DNA of 63,889 nucleotides, filler included, from Candidatus Woesearchaeota archaeon (GCA_003650545.1; 6 parts of 4 records of this genome joined end to end with filler, not necessarily neighbours in it), one strand, 5' to 3'; shown: positions 11,211 through 19,356, counted from the whole stretch's first letter. The notes: generated from the letters alone by a model not told the origin. Translations and numbers: made by a program.

Positions 11211-11807
11211 ATGCTTAAAAAAGTAAAAAAGGAGGAAAAGCCACCAAAAAATGTTCCTTCTAGAAAAATATCCTCAAAAAAAAAGGAGCCAGAAATTTCT
11301 GAATTAAAAGGACAAGAATGTCCTATGTGCAAACAAAAATCTTTAACTTTAACTGAAGCTGAGAGGGATATACCTTATTTCGGTAAAGTGTATATTTTTT
11401 CAATGACATGTTCTAATTGTAAATATCATAAATCAGATGTTGAAGTAGCTGAGAAACAACAGCCCTGCAAATACTCTCTGGAGATTAGTGGCGATAATGA
11501 TCTTAATGCGAGGGTTGTTAAATCGAGTGAAGCAACTGTCAAGATCCCCCATATAATAACAATTGAACCTGGACCTGGCAGTAATGGTTACATAACAAAT
11601 GTCGAAGGTGTGCTTAATAGGATTAAAGGAATAATTGAATCCACTAGAGATGTTGAAGAAGATAAAGAAGCAAAAAAGAAAGCAAGTAAATTACTCAAGA
11701 AAATCAACAGAGCAATGTTCGGTCAGGAAAAAATAAAACTTATTATTGAAGACCCAACAGGGAATTCAATAATCATCAGTGAGAAAGCTATTAAGAGTAA
11801 ATTGTGA
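11211..11807 (+). CDS. ZPR1 zinc finger protein
   Basis: CPMC...IPYFG...CSNC, GYITNVEG, IEDPTGNS. Confidence 0.93.
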   Translation: MLKKVKKEEKPPKNVPSRKISSKKKEPEISELKGQECPMCKQKSLTLTEAERDIPYFGKVYIFSMTCSNCKYHKSDVEVAEKQQPCKYSLEISGDNDLNARVVKSSEATVKIPHIITIEPGPGSNGYITNVEGVLNRIKGIIESTRDVEEDKEAKKKASKLLKKINRAMFGQEKIKLIIEDPTGNSIIISEKAIKSKL

Positions 11808-12606: not shown

Positions 12607-13062
12607 TCATATTGTAGGCGCTGTTTGTGAATGGGCACGATGATCTAAGTTACTATCGATAATCTTGCGTATATAATTCCCCTTGCTAAATTGTCTCCTG
12701 TTCTTGCTCATACTTTCTATATGACGCAAAAACAAGAATATCTTTGCACAAATATTGTCAAGTTCTATGATGAGATCTTCATATTTGAAGATTGATACAT
12801 AACCTAAGTCTTTAGCCAGTTTTAGAAGCACCTGCAGCTCACGAGCAGAAGCATAGGATATGTTGCAGTAATAAAAAAATTCCTTAAGTGTTGGCTTAGA
12901 AGCACCCTCTGCTATATTAACAGGCACACTTATGGCAGAACGTCTTATCTGCGATTTTAGGTTGCGTTCTTCATGTGGAAATGCATCTGTTAGTTTATAG
13001 ACCTTTATTGCAAAATCATACGCAAGTGTGTATGCAAAAATCTTTCTGTAGTCTGATGCCAT
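12607..13062 (-). CDS. Four helix bundle protein (23S rRNA IVP / Avd-like)
   Basis: YKLTDAFP.EE..LKSQIRRSAISVPVNIAEG...SYASAREL. Confidence 0.93.
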   Translation of the reverse strand: MASDYRKIFAYTLAYDFAIKVYKLTDAFPHEERNLKSQIRRSAISVPVNIAEGASKPTLKEFFYYCNISYASARELQVLLKLAKDLGYVSIFKYEDLIIELDNICAKIFLFLRHIESMSKNRRQFSKGNYIRKIIDSNLDHRAHSQTAPTI

Positions 13063-13094: not shown

Positions 13095-13505
13095 TTAAGA
13101 TATCATTCTTGAATAGGTATATTTTTTTATGGCAGTTTTAATTTTATAATCATGTTTTTCTAAATATTTCATGAAATTAAATAGCTTAGCTGATAAAATA
13201 TCTAACTTATGTAAGTATGTCTCTGCTGAATTTGGTTTGATATATCCAAGTTCGCAAGAAAATGAAACTAACGCTACAAGTTCGCGACAACTTGAGTAAG
13301 CAATATTAACATAATAATAATATTCTTTTATCGAGGATTTTCCACTTCCTTCTGCAATATTAAGAAATGTCGAAAAAATAGCTCTTCTAAACTGCGACCT
13401 TAAACTAACTGCGTTTAGAGGAAATGTATCAGTAAGTCTATACAACTCCAATGAAAGTGTATAACTATCCTTGTAGATATCTAAATTCTTAAAATGTCTA
13501 ACCAT
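13095..13505 (-). CDS. Four helix bundle protein (23S rRNA IVP / Avd-like), second copy
   Basis: MVRHFKNLDIY...SQFRRAIFSTFLNIAEG...AYSSCREL; start taken at MVRH. Confidence 0.9.
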   Translation of the reverse strand: MVRHFKNLDIYKDSYTLSLELYRLTDTFPLNAVSLRSQFRRAIFSTFLNIAEGSGKSSIKEYYYYVNIAYSSCRELVALVSFSCELGYIKPNSAETYLHKLDILSAKLFNFMKYLEKHDYKIKTAIKKYTYSRMIS

Positions 13506-14224
13506 AACTCTTTCCTGGTGATTATAATATATAGGACTTCCTATATATTTTTTATATTTCATGGTATGTATATAGAATATAAATCTAATATAAATCTGTG
13601 ATAAATCTGGTAAAGAGCTATAAAGTCAAAATTGAGAACCCTCTATAGCTTCTTTTAATGATGTGGTTCAGCTAATGATTCAGCTTTCTATATTCTAAAT
13701 TTGGTGCAGCAGCATAGCAGGCACAGAGCTACAGCTATCATTAATCGCATTAAATCACTTGTATATAAAAACAAAACTAAAAACAACCAAAATAAAGAAA
13801 AAAAGCCATGTATACGAAGATACAGGAACGGACGATTGGGGACCGCATGCTAAACATCTCGTTGCCTTGATGCGTACACACCGGTTCCATCAAACTCATG
13901 TTTTATGAGAGTCCTATGATGTCTATTTTTAAGGAGGGTTTCGTGCTTAGATGCTTTCAGCACTTATCCCTTAAAGCGTAGCTGCCCGGCTTACCCTGTC
14001 GGATAACCGGTAGACCAGTGGCTTCGAATCCTCGTTCCTCTCGTACTAAAGGATCCTTCCCCTCAGACATCAAACATCTCCAGTAGATATTAAACAAACT
14101 GCCTCACAGCGTTCTGAACCCAGCTCACGATCCCTTTTGATTGGTGAACACCCACACCCTTGGATGCTGCTGCACATCCAGGATAGGAAGAGCCGACATC
14201 GATGTAGCAAGCCGCGCCGTCGAT

Positions 14225-14275
14225 ATACTCTTTTCGCTATAACTTAACTATTCAGAGCTTAGTTATGGCGAATGT
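14225..14275 (-). other. 51-nt BHB-type intron in 23S helix 89
   Basis: Hairpin insert; central helix GCUC/GAGU with AUA bulges; excision restores GCUCAUAUCGAC. Confidence 0.85.
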
Positions 14276-14817
14276 ATGAGCTCTCGGGCGCGACAACTCT
14301 GTTATCCCCGGAGTAACTTTTCGGTCAGCCCTAAGCCTCATCAAGAAGCTATAGGGGTTCGCTAGACCACGCTTTCACGTTTGGATCTTTTACTGTTCAA
14401 GATCCAATCAGGTTAGCTTTTGCTCTTGCACTCTACTCCGAATTTCTGACTCGGATGAGCTAACCTTTGGGCACCATTGATATGCTTTCAACGGTGTGCC
14501 ACCCCAGCCAAACTGTCTACCTATTGCTGTCCCAAGGTTTCCCTCGGTTAGCGATGCAAACATAGAAGGATGGTGTTACATTGACGCCTATTCGCAATCT
14601 TGCGACTACGACTTCAAGCAGCTCCCATCTACACTATACAACCACACTCACACCACAACAACAAGCTACAGTAAAGTTTCACGGGGTCTTAACTTCCCAC
14701 TGGAGATCCCTGGCCTTTGCACCAGGAAAGAGTTTTCGGAGAGTTCCGTCTGGGGACAGTGGAGATCTCGTTACGCCATTCATGCAGGCCGTCATTCAAA
14801 CGGCAAGGCATTTCGCT

Positions 14818-15123
14818 CACAACTGTTACTTTCTCCTGAACTAGTCAGGATACTGACCTTCGTTAGAAGGCGGGTGTGTATTTCTACACACCTCCACTAG
14901 TCGCCTAGTGGGTCGGACTATATCTTCACACTTCTTTGAGTTTTGATAAGTGTGTCTGGCGTATAGTCTCTGAGGATTCTTCTCTTAGAGAAGTCTTTCC
15001 TGCTGATTACCTCCACTTACGAATTTTTAGGGGTCGCTATGTTGTTGCCAACATAGTAGCCTATCGTAAGATACAGAGGCTTCCCAGCATATAGCCAGAT
15101 TTTATTAAGGCAACTTTGTGTTT
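14818..15123 (-). ncRNA. Group I intron at L1931, 306 nt, no homing endonuclease
   Basis: Exon AAGGU / intron ending in G / AGCGAAAU; R element UCAGAGACUAUA (14962-14973), S element AAGAUAUAGUCC (14915-14926), P/Q-like UGCUGGGAA and AAUCAGCAG. Confidence 0.93.
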
Positions 15124-17246
15124 ACCTTAAGAGAGTTATAGTTACTCCCGCCGTTTATCTGTCCTTAGGACCGTTGTAACAGTCTTTTAGATACAGACAC
15201 TGGGCAGACGTCACCAACTGTACGAACCTTTACAGGCTAGCAGTTAGTTAAGTTTTTGTTAAACAGTCGGACCTCCTTAGTCACTGCGTCCTGCTTTCGC
15301 AAACATAAGCCCACAAAAGCAGGAACCCCTTATGCCGAAGGCACGAGGCTAATTTGCCGAATTCCCTCAAACGGATTAACTCTTGACGCTTTAGGCTTCT
15401 CACCTAGGGGCACCTGTGCTGGTTCTGGGTATAATTACAACAGATCTATCCTCATTCCTTTTTCATGGGGTTAAGGCATCAACCAAACGCCTCATAGAGA
15501 CGCTATTCTCAGATTTAATCAAGTTCTCATCATAACGATACTCCCTTGATTTATTCTGATTAACACTATAGACAAGTAGTGTTGGTCTAGCCCAAACCGT
15601 CAGAAACAAGGCTTGTGTTGCCACATATACTGTTGTAGTACAGGAATATTAACCTGTTTCCCTTTCCCGCAACGTCAGCTAAGACTGCGGTTAGGATTAA
15701 CTTACCCTTAACTGAACGACATTGTTAAGGAACCCTTGCCCTTTCAGCGACAGAGATTCTCACTCTGCTAAGATCCTACTATCACCAGGATTCTCATTTC
15801 TGCTAGATGCATTTCCTCTCTTGAGAAAACTTCTACTCTAACAGAACGCCTGCCTACCATCTTTTGCAAGATCTATAGTATCGGTAGCTAACTTAGCCCC
15901 GTCCATTTTCGAGGCTCGCGGCCTTGACGAGTAAGCTGTTACGCACTTATTATAGGGTGGCTGCTTCTAAGCCAACCTCCTCGCTGTCTATGGCAACGAA
16001 CACTCTTCACCCGTTAACACTTAGCTAGCATTTTGGGACCTTAACTATAGTCTGGGTTGTTCCCCTCTCGGGACTCAAGCTTACCCCGAGCCCCCGTCTC
16101 CTAAGGTCTACAATGTTAGAACATTCTGAGTTGGACAGGAAACCGAAGGATTTCTCCCCCTAAATTCCCAATCCGTAGCTCTACCATTCTAACTATCTCG
16201 CTTAGGGCTTGACTGCGGCCAACTTCGGCAGGAACCAGCTATCACCGAGCTCGATTGGCTTTTCACCCCTAGCCCCAGGTTAGAAGAGCACTTGCCCGTA
16301 GCACCTCTGCAGGCCTCCGCGTGGTTTTACCCACACTTCACCTTACCCAGGGTTAGTTCGCTCGGCTTCGGGTAGTATCCACGTGACTAAAAGGCACTTT
16401 CATACCCTTCCCCTTGCAAAAAAAGCTGCGGGAACTTGATTTCTCTTTGAATCCTCTCCGTAAGAGATTATTCTCGCCACATAGATACACTCCCTGGCAC
16501 GTTATTCGAAACGTACGATAGAACTCCTAAAAGCCCTATCAAACCATAGCTACCAGGTTTCAGGATCTTTTAACTCTCGGTCAAAAGTTCTTTTCAACTT
16601 TCCCTCACGGTACTCGTTTGCTATCGGACTCTAAGAGTATTTAAGGTTGGAAGTTGATGCCTCCCACATTCACGCCTAATCTCCAATAGACGCTACTCTG
16701 GAACACGCTAAGGTCCTTTTGCACTTCCTCTACGGGACTATCACCCTCTATGGTGCTCCTTTCCAGGAGACTTTGAGTCGCACAACGAGGACTTAAAAGC
16801 GGTCCAAACTCTTCATCCATGATACATTTCTGCACCATGTCTGTTTGCCTTATGCTGCTTTCGATCGCCTTTACTCACAGCATCCCTATTGGTTTCTTTT
16901 CCTACAGGTACTAAGACGTTTCAATTCCCTGTGTTCCCTATCCTTTCGGATCTAAAAGCGAAGTCGCATTCGGAAAGCTCCGGTTCAATGGCTACATGCG
17001 CCTCGCCGAAGCATAGCGTTGCTTGTCACGTCCTTCATCGGCTTTAGAGCCTAGTCATCCACCTGATAGCATTAACTAAAGCGTATCTCCGTAAACATGG
17101 CTTCATCAATATAAACATAAAGTTTATTCCACCAAATCATTCGATATTCGTAATATCGAATGATCTTATAAAATATTGAATATTATTTTTGATATATAAA
17201 CAACCAAATGCTTTGTTCTGGAATTTTTAATACCTAAATTATTTTA

Positions 17247-17532
17247 TGGACCCGGCGGGACTTTCGCCAAACCTCTTGCATTGAGCATCATCATCAACCA
17301 AGTGGGCATAAGACTTAACCCACTCTTGTTTAAAATAAAGATTCTAAACATGCCAAAAGTAAGAGCATTTTAGCTCTTTGATGTTTTGCCAGTTGGCAAA
17401 AAGGCTGTTTCGAACCCGCGGCCCCCGCCTATCTAGAGACAGAAACTTGCTTCTAGTCTGTGCAAGGGCGATGCTCTATTTTCCGCTAACCAGCTGTAAC
17501 TGCTAGCATGCACCAGACTGAGCTACAGGCCC
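17247..17532 (-). tRNA. tRNA-Ala(UGC) with three introns (17478-17511, 17431-17460, 17261-17408)
   Basis: Spliced: GGGCCUGUAGCUCAGUCUGGU|AGAGCAUCGCCCUUGCA|AGGCGGGGGCCGCGGGUUCGAA|UCCCGCCGGGUCCA; G3-U70 pair; located in the ITS. Confidence 0.92.
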
Positions 17533-17642
17533 ATTTTAATAAAAATAGCAAGTTGATAGCGTTAAAAGAGAAGCGATACAACCAAACAGCAAATTTGCTT
17601 CTGTTGTATCAACCGACCATTGTCGTCAAAAATTAAAAAAAT

Positions 17643-17684
<42 letters not shown>

Positions 17685-18262
17685 GACGACTTAGCCCATC
17701 TCACTGAGCTTTGATTCGCATTGACTAAAATCAATGCTTATCAAAACCCTGCTCGAGTGGCTTGACGGGCGGTGTGTGCAAGAAGCAGGGACATATTCAC
17801 CGGACGTTGTTGACGTCCGATTACTAGGGATTCCATCGTCATGACAGCGAGTTACAGCCATCAATCTGTACTAGGGTAAGGTTTCGAGGTTTAGCTTCTC
17901 TTTTCAGAGTTGCAACCCATTGTCCTTACCATTGTTGCGCGCGTGTTGCCCAGAAGATTCGGGGCATACAGACCTACCGTGGCCCACACCTTCCTCCCGG
18001 TTTCCTGGGCAGTCTCAACAATGTGCACAGCTTCCACAAAAGCTGTTAGCAATTGTTGACGTGGGTCTCGCTCGTTATCACGCTTAGGTGGACACCTTAC
18101 GGCACGAGCTGACGGCGGCCATGCACCACCTCTCGGCTTGTCCAGTAAGACCTTTAATCTGACTTTCATTCTGCCGTCGCTCCTGGTGAGATTTTCTGTG
18201 TAGAGTTAGATTAAACCGCACGCCGCACCCCTTGTAGTGCTTCCCCGCCAATTCCTTTAAGT

Positions 18263-18305
18263 TTACTGACTCTAGAAGTAAAACCTAAGTTTTCTTCTCA
18301 TGAGT
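18263..18305 (-). other. 43-nt BHB-type 16S intron after position ~908
   Basis: ACUG/CAGU helix with AAA bulges; excision restores GACUGAAACUUAAAGGAAUUG. Confidence 0.85.
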
Positions 18306-18733
18306 TTCAGTCTTGCGACCATACTTCCCAGGCGGCGAGCTTAACACCTTCGCTCCGACACTGGATATTCTCGAAAAATATCCAACATCTAGCTCGCAGC
18401 GTTTACTGCTAGGACTACACGGGTATCTAATCCGGTTCGCTCCCCTAGCCTTCGTCCCTCACTGTCGAACCCGTTCTAGTCAGATGCCTTCGCCATAGGT
18501 GGTCCTCTCAGGATTAATGCATTTTACCGCGCCCCTGAGAATACCTCTGACTCCTCCCGGTTCCAAGTTAGGCAGTGTTCCCTGCAGTCATCGAGTTGAG
18601 CCCGATGCTTTAACAAGGAATTTACCAAACCAGCTACGGACGCTTTAGGCCCAATAAACACGGCTCCCACTTGTGGCGCTGGTGTTACCGCGGCGGCTGG
18701 CACCAGTCTTACCCACCACTTATTCGCCAAGAT

Positions 18734-18774
18734 ATGTAAATCAGAAATGGTACATCAAAATGTCCATTTTTGTA
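18734..18774 (-). other. 41-nt BHB-type 16S intron in the helix 17 loop
   Basis: GUAA/UUAC helix and AUA bulge; excision gives GCCAAGA-GUAAAAA-UCUUGGC. Confidence 0.72.
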
Positions 18775-18950
18775 TTTTACTCTTGGCAAAAGCCAATGCA
18801 AAGCATTAGCACTTGGGATCCCCCTATCACACTTTCGTGCATTGTAGAGGTTTCGCGACTGCTGCACCCCGTAGGGCTAGGACCAGTTTCTCAGTGTCCT
18901 TCTCGGGGCTCCCTCTCTCAAGGCCCCTACCGATCACAGGCTTGGTGGGC

Positions 18951-18995
18951 TTGTACAAGCGTAAGTTTTTCACGAGAAAAACTTTATTTTTCGCA
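18951..18995 (-). other. 45-nt BHB-like 16S intron near position 265 (helix 11)
   Basis: Hairpin insert; excision restores GGUGGGGUAAAGGCCCACCAAG. Confidence 0.8.
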
Positions 18996-19356
18996 CTTTA
19001 CCCCACCAACAACCTAATCGGCCGCCAACTCATCCTTAAGCGTTGCCTTTGAAAAATGCATCCTTCCAGAGTGCATTTCCTATCCGGTTTTAGCTTCAGT
19101 TTCCCGAAGTTATCCCAGACCTAAGGTTAGATTATCGACGTGTTACTGAGCATTCCGCCGGTCTCTTGCGAGCCCTGACTTGCATGTCTAAATCGGATCC
19201 CAATAGCAGCAACCTCCCGCAGGATCAACGGGAATTGTTTATTGGTCGCATAGGAATTCTAGATAGCACTATCAACTTGCATAATTCATACTTAACATAA
19301 TGTTAAGTATACACGTGTGTAGAAAATTGGAGATGATATATTTTAATTTTTTAATG

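What the first reader, a model, noticed from the sequence alone, without database searches (positions are those of the whole stretch)
13824..19235. One rRNA operon carrying eight introns of two chemistries
Seven BHB-type ORF-less introns (3 in 16S, 3 in tRNA-Ala, 1 in 23S; 30-148 nt) plus a group I ribozyme intron. For six of the seven, cutting after the second bulge nucleotide restores the conserved sequence; no BHB was resolved for the D-loop intron. With no homing endonuclease, this density suggests spread of mini-hairpin introns by reverse splicing or retro-insertion, and a relaxed-specificity EndA.
Basis: partly seen in the sequence, partly recalled or inferred. Interest (0 to 1): 0.8.

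Follow-up and report, generated by a model that had tools for sequence, protein, structure and literature searches.

The report
Eight-intron rRNA operon, Woesearchaeal archaeon
The only ribosomal RNA operon of this tiny uncultured archaeon is interrupted by seven short protein-cut introns and one self-splicing intron; the count is striking, but each intron is of a published kind and recurs at the same site in related archaea.

Summary
On the minus strand lie 16S (19235..17644), a tRNA-Ala(UGC) gene in the spacer (17532..17247) and 23S (17085..13816).

Alignment to intron-less relatives of the same order gives eight exact inserts:
- 45, 41 and 43 nt in 16S
- 34, 30 and 148 nt in the tRNA (D-loop, 37/38, 59/60)
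- 306 nt (group I, after U1931) and 51 nt (about U2477) in 23S

Six of the seven small inserts have a bulge-helix-bulge (BHB) core whose cuts restore the relatives' sequence (null 0.0002-0.004 each). The D-loop insert has only a marginal one. Seven of the eight have counterparts at the same site in other families, with compensating changes in the central helix.

The intron bodies have no copies elsewhere in the genome. No reverse transcriptase was found. The single EndA (176 aa) aligns with the M. jannaschii alpha4 enzyme and lacks both known specificity-broadening loops.

The operon is not special in this genome. Only 7 tRNAs are detectable, and about 15-19 tRNA genes carry the same T-loop intron.

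I found no RNA evidence of splicing. This scan has already reported mini-introns in DPANN rRNA and three-intron tRNAs, including in this genome. Verdict: a new member of a known kind.

The parts
17644..19235 (-). 16S rRNA gene (1592 nt including three introns); the only SSU gene found in the assembly
   Evidence: Rfam RF01959, 1366.6 bits, model 1-1478; one SSU match in G000
18951..18995 (-). 16S intron 1, 45 nt, in a hairpin loop (after E. coli 265). Relaxed BHB: central helix 3/4 bp, outer helix 8 bp, 3' bulge AA|G
   Evidence: Exact insert against 11 intron-less relatives. Same-site introns in L010, L011, L012 and L015, three of them with 4/4 GTAA:TTAC and covarying inner helices. Null 2/5596
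18734..18774 (-). 16S intron 2, 41 nt, in a hairpin loop. BHB with central helix 4/4 (GTAA:TTAC), outer helix 10 bp, bulges AA|T and AT|A; inner helix offset
   Evidence: The spliced loop is identical to that of the nearest relative L011. A homologue sits at the same site in L015. Null 1/5600
18263..18305 (-). 16S intron 3, 43 nt, inside a stretch invariant in all 16 aligned genes (E. coli site 908). Central helix 4/4 (ACTG:CAGT), outer helix 3 bp, 5' bulge of 2-3 nt
   Evidence: null 7/5598. Found in WIN only, of the 16 genes shown. Site 908 is a published archaeal 16S intron locus (PMC4496867)
17247..17532 (-). tRNA-Ala(UGC) gene in the 16S-23S spacer, 286 nt with three introns; no CCA encoded
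   Evidence: Spliced alignment; in-silico splicing gives ARAGORN tRNA-Ala(tgc) with G3:U70
17479..17512 (-). tRNA D-loop intron (about 20/21), 34 nt (equivalent register 17478..17511). Only a marginal HBh'-like motif (3/4, inner 2 bp, no outer helix)
   Evidence: Same-position introns in L010 (BHB with the D-stem as outer helix) and L011
17431..17460 (-). tRNA anticodon-loop intron at canonical 37/38, 30 nt. hBHBh' with one T-T mismatch in the central helix
   Evidence: H 3/4, h' 4, h 5; null 4/5611. Same-site introns in 7 other spacer tRNA-Ala genes
17261..17408 (-). tRNA T-loop intron at 59/60, 148 nt, ORF-less and multi-hairpin. Central helix 4/4 (TTCG:CGAA); the outer helix is the T-stem (5 bp)
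   Evidence: the minimum-energy fold equals the BHB-constrained fold, -57.5; null 1/5493. Same-site introns of 29-44 nt in 9 relatives, with a compensating TTCA:TGAA
13816..17085 (-). 23S rRNA gene (3270 nt including two introns)
   Evidence: Rfam RF02540, 2520.6 bits, model 1-2987
14818..15123 (-). Group I intron, 306 nt, ORF-less, inserted after the U equivalent to E. coli U1931; ends in G
   Evidence: RF00028, 87.8 and 82.2 bits, with P1 pairing the exon end to an internal guide. Exact borders against 12 intron-less LSU genes. Site mapping
14225..14275 (-). 23S intron 2, 51 nt, after about E. coli U2477. Central helix 4/4 (GCTC:GAGT), bulges AT|A and AT|A; 5' side loosened (inner helix offset)
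   Evidence: null 20/5590; BHB-constrained fold within 0.2 kcal of the minimum; five relatives with 4/4 helices, including a compensating GTTC:GAAC

Best explanation
This is the single, functional rRNA operon of a Woesearchaeales (DPANN) archaeon, and its primary transcript must be spliced at eight places. Seven inserts are archaeal endonuclease-type (BHB) introns. The exon and the 3' end of the intron pair into a 4-bp helix flanked by two 3-nt bulges. The tRNA-splicing endonuclease EndA cuts after the second nucleotide of each bulge, and RtcB joins the exons, probably circularising the intron as well. The eighth insert is a self-splicing group I ribozyme at LSU position 1931, of the type already described in Woesearchaeota, here without its homing-endonuclease gene. 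The introns are long-standing occupants of their sites and are shared patchily across the order. They are part of a genome-wide habit of interrupting stable-RNA genes, not a local burst. Shown: the inserts, their exact borders, the BHB geometry, the covariation, the ribozyme core, and the presence of EndA and RtcB. Inferred: that splicing actually happens, and by which enzymes.
For: Borders. All eight removals restore the sequence and length seen in intron-less relatives. The spliced tRNA folds as tRNA-Ala with G3:U70.

BHB geometry. Six of seven are junction-exact, with nulls of 0.0002-0.004.

Comparative support. 16S-1 occurs in 4 of the 15 relatives shown, three of them with a perfect hBHBh' and different inner-helix sequences. 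23S-2 occurs in 5 of 17 relatives, all 4/4, with GCTC:GAGT, GCTC:GAGC, GTTC:GAAC and GCTC:GGGC. The T-loop intron occurs in 10 of 12 readable spacers, with TTCG:CGAA against TTCA:TGAA.

Necessity. There is one SSU and one LSU match in the assembly. 16S-3 and the T-loop intron break invariant functional sequence.

Enzymes. EndA has both Pfam domains. RtcB is intact apart from an intein.

Group I intron. It scores 82-88 bits against a gathering score of 50, with P1 and a terminal G. Same-site introns occur in 4 of 17 relatives, and the one examined (G007) carries LAGLIDADG_1. Group I introns at LSU/1931 in Woesearchaeota, and BHB plus group I introns in one gene, are published (PMC6125680; Table 1 and text passages read).

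DNA. Contigs of run X1 cover the spacer tRNA, 16S-1, 16S-2 and part of the group I intron with 0 mismatches. X1 is probably the source sample, so this is not independent support.
Against: There is no RNA evidence. The only RNA runs holding parts of the stretch come from other samples. They have zero depth on this organism's unique spacer and flanks. Their joints across 23S-2 and 16S-2 could come from intron-less relatives.

The D-loop intron has no significant BHB in this genome.

Four of the BHBs are not strict: 16S-1 and tRNA 37/38 have 3/4 central pairs, and 16S-2, 16S-3 and 23S-2 have offset inner helices. Yet the EndA looks like the strict alpha4 type.

Three inserts (16S-1, 16S-2, 23S-2) sit in hairpin tips where an expansion could be tolerated.
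Confidence: 0.82

Rival explanations
1. The three inserts at hairpin tips (16S-1, 16S-2, 23S-2) are retained expansion segments of the mature ribosome and only mimic BHBs; only the other five are introns.
For: All three sit in terminal loops of helices (Rfam structure lines; alignment). Their 5' sides depart from the strict motif. No RNA data show their removal.
Against: The cut rule gives exactly the relatives' loop: 16S-2 gives the nearest relative's loop letter for letter, and 23S-2 gives the sequence of L034 and L037. The central helix and the 3-nt bulges are kept across families while the bodies differ and range from 31 to 91 nt, with compensating changes. An expansion segment has no reason to pair 4 bp of its 3' end with the upstream exon.
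Confidence: 0.08
2. One reading: the mini-introns multiplied recently within this lineage by reverse splicing or retro-insertion, made possible by a relaxed-specificity EndA.
For: High density: eight introns in 5.4 kb, and about 15-19 tRNA genes with T-loop introns. No homing endonuclease lies in the operon. Several BHBs are relaxed.
Against: There is no sequence similarity among the eight introns, or between them and anything else in the assembly. No RVT_1 was found (the genome is 85% complete). Seven of the eight sites are shared with other families. EndA lacks both known broadening loops, and every one of the 40 relatives' and own genomes with a match has just one such gene, whether intron-rich or intron-poor.
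Confidence: 0.08
3. The spacer tRNA-Ala is a decaying pseudogene. The D-loop insert cannot be removed, and alanine decoding relies on another gene.
For: There is no significant BHB for the D-loop insert. The T-loop intron is 148 nt, against 29-44 nt in relatives.
Against: After removal of the inserts, every stem, the G3:U70 identity pair and the anticodon loop are intact. The D-loop site is also occupied in L010 and L011, where a BHB is present. The other two introns keep good BHBs. I did not find or look for a second tRNA-Ala(UGC) gene.
Confidence: 0.06
4. Assembly artefact: the inserts are chimeric joins in a metagenome bin.
For: The assembly is a 133-contig bin with 3.9% contamination.
Against: The operon lies 8.8 kb inside a 91.9-kb contig. 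Independent unitigs of run X1 cross several junctions with 0 mismatches. Homologous inserts occur at the same sites in other genomes.
Confidence: 0.02

Closest known systems
Small (<50 nt) hairpin-forming BHB introns of Thermoproteales/Desulfurococcales 16S rRNA genes (Jay & Inskeep 2015, PMC4496867; passages and Table 1 read)
   Same: They are ORF-less hairpin introns that keep the bulge-helix-bulge at the junction. Locus 908 is one of that paper's 13 loci. Several introns can occupy one gene.
   Different: The host is a mesophilic-type DPANN archaeon, not a thermophilic crenarchaeon. The sites after 265 and in the next hairpin loop are not among the 13 loci listed there. At 908 that paper lists endonuclease-coding and remnant introns, not hairpin ones.
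Archaeal IB4 group I introns at LSU/1931, including Woesearchaeota examples of about 310-400 nt (Nawrocki, Jones & Eddy 2018, PMC6125680; Table 1 and passages read)
   Same: Same host gene, same insertion site and same phylum label. Similar ORF-less size (306 nt). [quoted passage not shown]
   Different: I did not test the subgroup, having only the generic Rfam model. This operon also has BHB introns in the 16S gene and in the spacer tRNA.
Multiple-intron tRNA genes of Thermoproteales and the disrupted tRNA genes of DPANN (Kaneta et al. 2018, PMC5829648, passages read; Fujishima et al. 2011, PMC3239211, passages read)
   Same: Up to three introns per tRNA at non-canonical positions with relaxed BHBs. 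tRNA sets cannot be predicted completely by standard tools.
   Different: Those papers tie tRNA disruption to EndA enzymes carrying an extra loop (L1/CSL, L2/ASL or L3). The EndA here has neither the CSL nor the N. equitans-type insert.
M. jannaschii-type alpha4 splicing endonuclease (PDB 1a79)
   Same: A single gene of 176 aa with N-terminal and catalytic domains. It aligns over 172 against 171 residues without a loop-sized gap.
   Different: Its substrates here include non-canonical positions and loosened motifs, which the papers read say the alpha4 type does not cut. Neither oligomeric state nor specificity was tested.

Membership tests
Archaeal BHB (splicing-endonuclease) introns | Interrupts a conserved stable-RNA gene, and exact removal restores the conserved sequence | tested here: met
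   7 of 7 small inserts. Alignments to intron-less relatives; tRNA cloverleaf after removal
Archaeal BHB (splicing-endonuclease) introns | Two 3-nt bulges separated by a 4-bp helix at the exon-intron borders, with cuts at the same place in each bulge (definition as in PMC6379350) | tested here: met
   Central helix 4/4 in four introns and 3/4 in two, at the junction-restoring register (nulls 1/5493 to 20/5590). Strict hBHBh' only for the T-loop intron. The D-loop intron is inconclusive
Archaeal BHB (splicing-endonuclease) introns | Structure, not sequence, is conserved among same-site introns (covariation) | tested here: met
   23S-2 has four helix variants, including the double change GTTC:GAAC. 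The T-loop intron has TTCG:CGAA against TTCA:TGAA. The 16S-1 inner helices differ completely
Archaeal BHB (splicing-endonuclease) introns | EndA and RtcB are encoded by the host | tested here: met
   PF01974 plus PF02778 in a 176-aa ORF; PF01139 in a 995-aa ORF with an intein
Archaeal BHB (splicing-endonuclease) introns | Ligated exons and a circular or linear excised intron are seen in RNA | tested here: inconclusive
   Only foreign metatranscriptomes hold parts of the stretch, and they have zero depth on this organism's unique spacer
Group I introns | Conserved catalytic core (P3-P8) recognised by a covariance model | tested here: met
   RF00028, 87.8 and 82.2 bits against a gathering score of 50; E 1.2e-21
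Group I introns | The 5' exon ends in U paired to G in P1, and the intron ends in G | tested here: met
   The exon ends ...AAGGT and is paired in P1 in the cmscan alignment. The last intron base is G
Group I introns | Guanosine-dependent self-splicing | not testable with these tools
   Needs an in vitro transcript
IB4 subgroup at LSU/1931 (Nawrocki 2018) | Insertion after E. coli U1931 | tested here: met
   Aligned to position 1929 of a 2902-nt E. coli copy. The +2 offset to standard numbering is recalled, not computed
IB4 subgroup at LSU/1931 (Nawrocki 2018) | Match to the IB4 subgroup model | not tested
   No subgroup model was on hand
alpha4-type EndA | One gene of about 180 aa with N-terminal and catalytic domains and no second subunit gene | tested here: met
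   One PF01974 match in G000. tblastn finds no paralogue (next E 0.53). One match per genome in 40 of 41 same-order genomes, including one-contig genomes
alpha4-type EndA | No specificity-broadening insert (CSL/L1 or the N. equitans/ARMAN L3) | tested here: met
   Gaps of 10-11 residues against 2cv8_A and 3p1z_B, and of 2+4 residues against 3iey_A. Collinear with 1a79. Loop identities taken from PMC3239211 and PMC5829648
alpha4-type EndA | Homotetramer; cuts only strict BHB | not testable with these tools
   Needs protein work

The most novel reading that the evidence does not exclude
A plain, loop-less alpha4 EndA is the only splicing endonuclease of an archaeon whose rRNA operon and most tRNA genes carry non-canonical, partly relaxed BHB introns, and one D-loop intron with almost no BHB. 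If so, either broad substrate range does not need the CSL/ASL/L3 inserts that current models invoke, or an unknown helper (a protein, or folding of the RNA body) presents these sites to the enzyme.
Probability: 0.3. Interest if true: 0.6.

Novelty: new member of a known kind. Interest (0 to 1): 0.4.

Why it matters
This operon is a compact natural test set: seven endonuclease substrates of graded quality plus a ribozyme, in one essential transcript, served by one small EndA. It shows that 16S-based surveys and tRNA finders will misread such genomes: primer site 908 is split, and only 7 tRNAs are detectable. It also gives a concrete enzyme-substrate pair for testing whether the rule 'specificity loop means broad specificity' holds for archaeal splicing endonucleases in DPANN archaea.

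Tried and rejected
RNA evidence. Of 24 runs listed, one DNA run holds 0.93 of the sampled words, and 23 RNA runs hold 0.14-0.18. I laid X1-X4. The three RNA runs (wetland metatranscriptomes, short contigs, 95-99% alike) show joints that skip 51 nt at 14223>14275 and 41 nt at 18733>18775, and loose ends joining the exons at the group I site. They have zero depth on the spacer, the flanks and the intron interiors. The organism is therefore not shown to be present, and intron-less relatives explain the joints. This is no evidence either way.

Loose BHB scan of the whole operon. It gave 1011 hits and is useless without the junction constraint.

Search for BHBs in the 16S and 23S processing stems. 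It returned only AT-rich noise, with no clear motif.

Rfam at a permissive threshold on the spacer. It found no tRNA, no C/D-box RNA and nothing else credible, so the 148-nt intron's extra hairpins stay unexplained.

Search for intron paralogues. None were found.

Tree of 16S exons. Carriers of 16S-1 are scattered, so the tree cannot separate many losses from lateral exchange. I did not test support values or rooting.

E. coli numbering by --keeplength alignment. The counts were wrong, so I redid it with landmark strings.


Full report
WHAT IS THERE. The window is a composite of pieces of a 133-contig genome bin. The finding lies on contig C2 (window = C2 + 4944), 8.8 kb inside a 91.9-kb contig. 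Rfam finds an archaeal 23S gene at 13816-17085, a 16S gene at 17644-19235 and a group I intron inside the 23S gene, all on the minus strand. ARAGORN finds no tRNA in the window. The assembly holds one SSU and one LSU match, so this operon has to work.

BORDERS OF THE INSERTS. I took the 16S genes of 16 genomes and the 23S genes of 17 genomes, all from the same order but from different families (16S identity to the window 75-86%), and aligned them. The window's 16S has three inserts that intron-less relatives lack, base for base:
- 45 nt at 18995..18951
- 41 nt at 18774..18734
- 43 nt at 18305..18263

The 23S has two inserts:
- 306 nt at 15123..14818
- 51 nt at 14275..14225

For the spacer, I aligned an intact tRNA-Ala from relative G025 with a small dynamic-programming script that allows long gaps. 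The window holds a tRNA-Ala(UGC) gene at 17532..17247, broken by 34 nt in the D-loop, 30 nt at 37/38 and 148 nt at 59/60. Removing the three inserts by coordinates gives a sequence that ARAGORN calls tRNA-Ala(tgc) with the G3:U70 pair. Leaving the T-loop insert in gives no call.

ARE THE SMALL INSERTS BHB INTRONS? I used the published geometry: two 3-nt bulges around a 4-bp helix, cut after the second bulge base (definition read in PMC6379350). I scored only the register that restores the relatives' sequence, because a loose motif alone occurs 1011 times in the operon. Results:

| Intron | Central helix | Outer helix | Positions in the operon scoring as well |
|---|---|---|---|
| 16S-1 | 3/4 | 8 bp | 2/5596 |
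| 16S-2 | 4/4 | 10 bp | 1/5600 |
| 16S-3 | 4/4 | 3 bp | 7/5598 |
| tRNA 37/38 | 3/4 | 5 bp (inner helix 4 bp) | 4/5611 |
| tRNA 59/60 | 4/4 | T-stem (5 bp) | 1/5493 |
| 23S-2 | 4/4 | 2 bp | 20/5590 |

For tRNA 59/60 the minimum-energy fold is the BHB fold. For 23S-2 the BHB-constrained fold lies within 0.2 kcal of the minimum. The BHB cut in 16S-2 gives a loop identical to that of the nearest relative.

The D-loop intron is the exception. One register shows nothing (49% of positions do as well). The equivalent register shows 3/4 central pairs, a 2-bp inner helix and no outer helix (143/5607). Only the T-loop intron is a strict motif, though; the others are loosened on the 5' side or in the central helix.

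COMPARATIVE SUPPORT. Same-site inserts exist in other families.
- 16S-1: in 4 of the 15 relatives shown (L010, L011, L012, L015). Three have a perfect GTAA:TTAC helix and unrelated inner helices.
- 16S-2: in L015 only.
- 16S-3: in none of the 15 relatives shown.
- 23S-2: in 5 of 17 relatives (31-91 nt), all with 4/4 helices. These include GTTC:GAAC, a change on both sides.
- T-loop intron: in 10 of 12 readable spacer tRNA-Ala genes. TTCA:TGAA there stands against TTCG:CGAA here.
- 37/38 intron: in 8 of 12.
- D-loop intron: in 3 of 12. In L010 it sits in a BHB whose outer helix is the D-stem.

Two of the 14 spacers were cut by contig ends and were left out. Relatives also have small inserts at four other 16S sites and one other 23S site. 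One relative (G020) has six in its 16S alone. On a quick 16S tree the carriers of 16S-1 are scattered. That fits old introns with many losses, or exchange between lineages; I did not test which.

THE GROUP I INTRON. The 306-nt insert scores 82-88 bits against the generic group I model. P1 forms between the exon end and an internal guide, the core helices are recognisable, and the last base is G. Mapped onto an E. coli copy, it follows position 1929 of a 2902-nt gene, which is U1931 in standard numbering; the +2 offset is recalled. It has no room for a protein gene. Four of 17 relatives have an intron at the same junction (300-718 nt), and a fifth has one a few bases downstream. The 714-nt one in G007 encodes a 167-aa LAGLIDADG_1 protein. 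Nawrocki et al. 2018 list IB4 group I introns at LSU/1931 in several Woesearchaeota. They also state that group I and BHB introns share host genes (PMC6125680; Table 1 and passages read). This part is therefore published biology.

SITES. By landmark mapping, 16S-1 follows E. coli 265. 16S-3 follows 907 of a 1541-nt copy, which is 908 in standard numbering if the one-base deficit lies upstream, as a recalled primer landmark suggests. 23S-2 follows about 2477. Site 908 is one of 13 known archaeal 16S intron loci, and hairpin introns under 50 nt are a named class there (PMC4496867; passages and Table 1 read). The other two 16S sites are not in that list. Two literature searches found no paper describing small BHB introns in Woesearchaeal rRNA beyond the 2018 figure. 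Earlier notes of this scan report the 23S hairpin-tip site and DPANN mini-introns in other genomes.

ENZYMES. The assembly has one EndA gene (C6, 176 aa, N-terminal plus catalytic domains) and no detectable paralogue. Forty of the 41 same-order genomes searched, G000 included, have exactly one match, one-contig genomes among them. This is therefore an alpha4-like architecture throughout the order, whether a genome is intron-rich or intron-poor. Against solved structures, the protein is collinear with M. jannaschii EndA. It lacks the 10-11-residue N-terminal-domain loop of the S. tokodaii and A. pernix alpha subunits. It also lacks the lysine-rich 6-residue insert of the N. equitans alpha subunit. 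The papers read identify these as the loops that broaden specificity (PMC3239211, PMC5829648, PMC6379350). Its closest relatives (60-72% identity) are titled mostly Woesearchaeota or Nanoarchaeota, which supports the taxon. RtcB is present as a 995-aa protein with an intein.

AGAINST THE PROPOSED SPREAD MECHANISM. None of the eight intron bodies matches anything else in the assembly. No RVT_1 domain was found. LAGLIDADG_3 domains occur only inside long ORFs, as inteins do. The genome is 85% complete, so these absences are provisional.

CONTEXT. The operon is not an outlier within its genome. ARAGORN finds 7 tRNAs in 1.64 Mb. Rfam's tRNA model passes its cut-off 7 times, the lowest of 31 same-order genomes (range 7-42). 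A pattern search for T-loop 59/60 BHB introns with matching T-stem and acceptor stem gives 19 hits, against 4 in reversed-sequence controls. Earlier notes of this scan describe three-intron tRNA-Phe and tRNA-Leu genes in this same genome.

VERDICT. These are real introns, very probably all removed. Every type is already known, and most sites are shared with relatives. The number in one operon is high but not the record even within this order. The open and testable point is how a loop-less alpha4 EndA copes with loosened and non-canonical sites.

Noticed in passing
window 13095-13562 (-) and 12607-13062 (-): Two tandem genes of the '23S rRNA-intervening sequence protein' family (PF05635, a four-helix bundle, weakly bAvd-like) lie directly downstream of the 23S gene on the same strand. 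They are the only two in the genome. In 5 of the 12 same-order genomes with a match (G000, G002, G009, G017, G031) such a gene sits 136-250 nt after the 23S end on the same strand. One literature search found no description of this linkage in archaea.
   Followed up: partly
whole genome G000: Only 7 tRNA genes are detectable by ARAGORN or Rfam, the lowest of 31 same-order genomes. About 15-19 tRNA genes carry a 59/60 T-loop BHB intron (19 hits against 4 in the control). Low tRNA counts in relatives (G002, G013, G020) go with small rRNA introns.
   Followed up: partly
G000:C10:11499-14486 (locus L065 200-3187, -): RtcB, the ligase that must seal all these introns, is itself interrupted by an intein of about 480 residues (Intein_splicing domain, residues 134-614 of 995). 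LAGLIDADG_3 domains in at least six other long ORFs suggest many inteins in this genome.
   Followed up: partly
locus L061 2078-3022 (+), beside endA: The gene diverging from endA encodes a 314-aa protein with a metallo-beta-lactamase-type histidine motif. By eye it is possibly RNase Z, the tRNA 3' processing enzyme. I did not check it with any library.
   Followed up: no
relatives: L015 (G020), L008/L010/L012, L041/L044: Relatives carry small inserts at further rRNA sites: 16S alignment positions 629, 725, 1008 and 1022, and 23S position 2552. G020 has six inserts in one 16S gene. G040 contig C51 holds a 2318-nt, low-scoring 16S-like gene with 13 inserts.
   Followed up: no
window 17261-17408 (-): The T-loop intron of tRNA-Ala is 148 nt here, against 29-44 nt in nine relatives. 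It folds into four extra hairpins. It has no Rfam match, no ORF and no copy elsewhere in the genome.
   Followed up: partly
window 11211-11807 (+): A ZPR1-type zinc-finger protein gene (zinc ribbon plus jelly-roll domains) lies near the operon.
   Followed up: no
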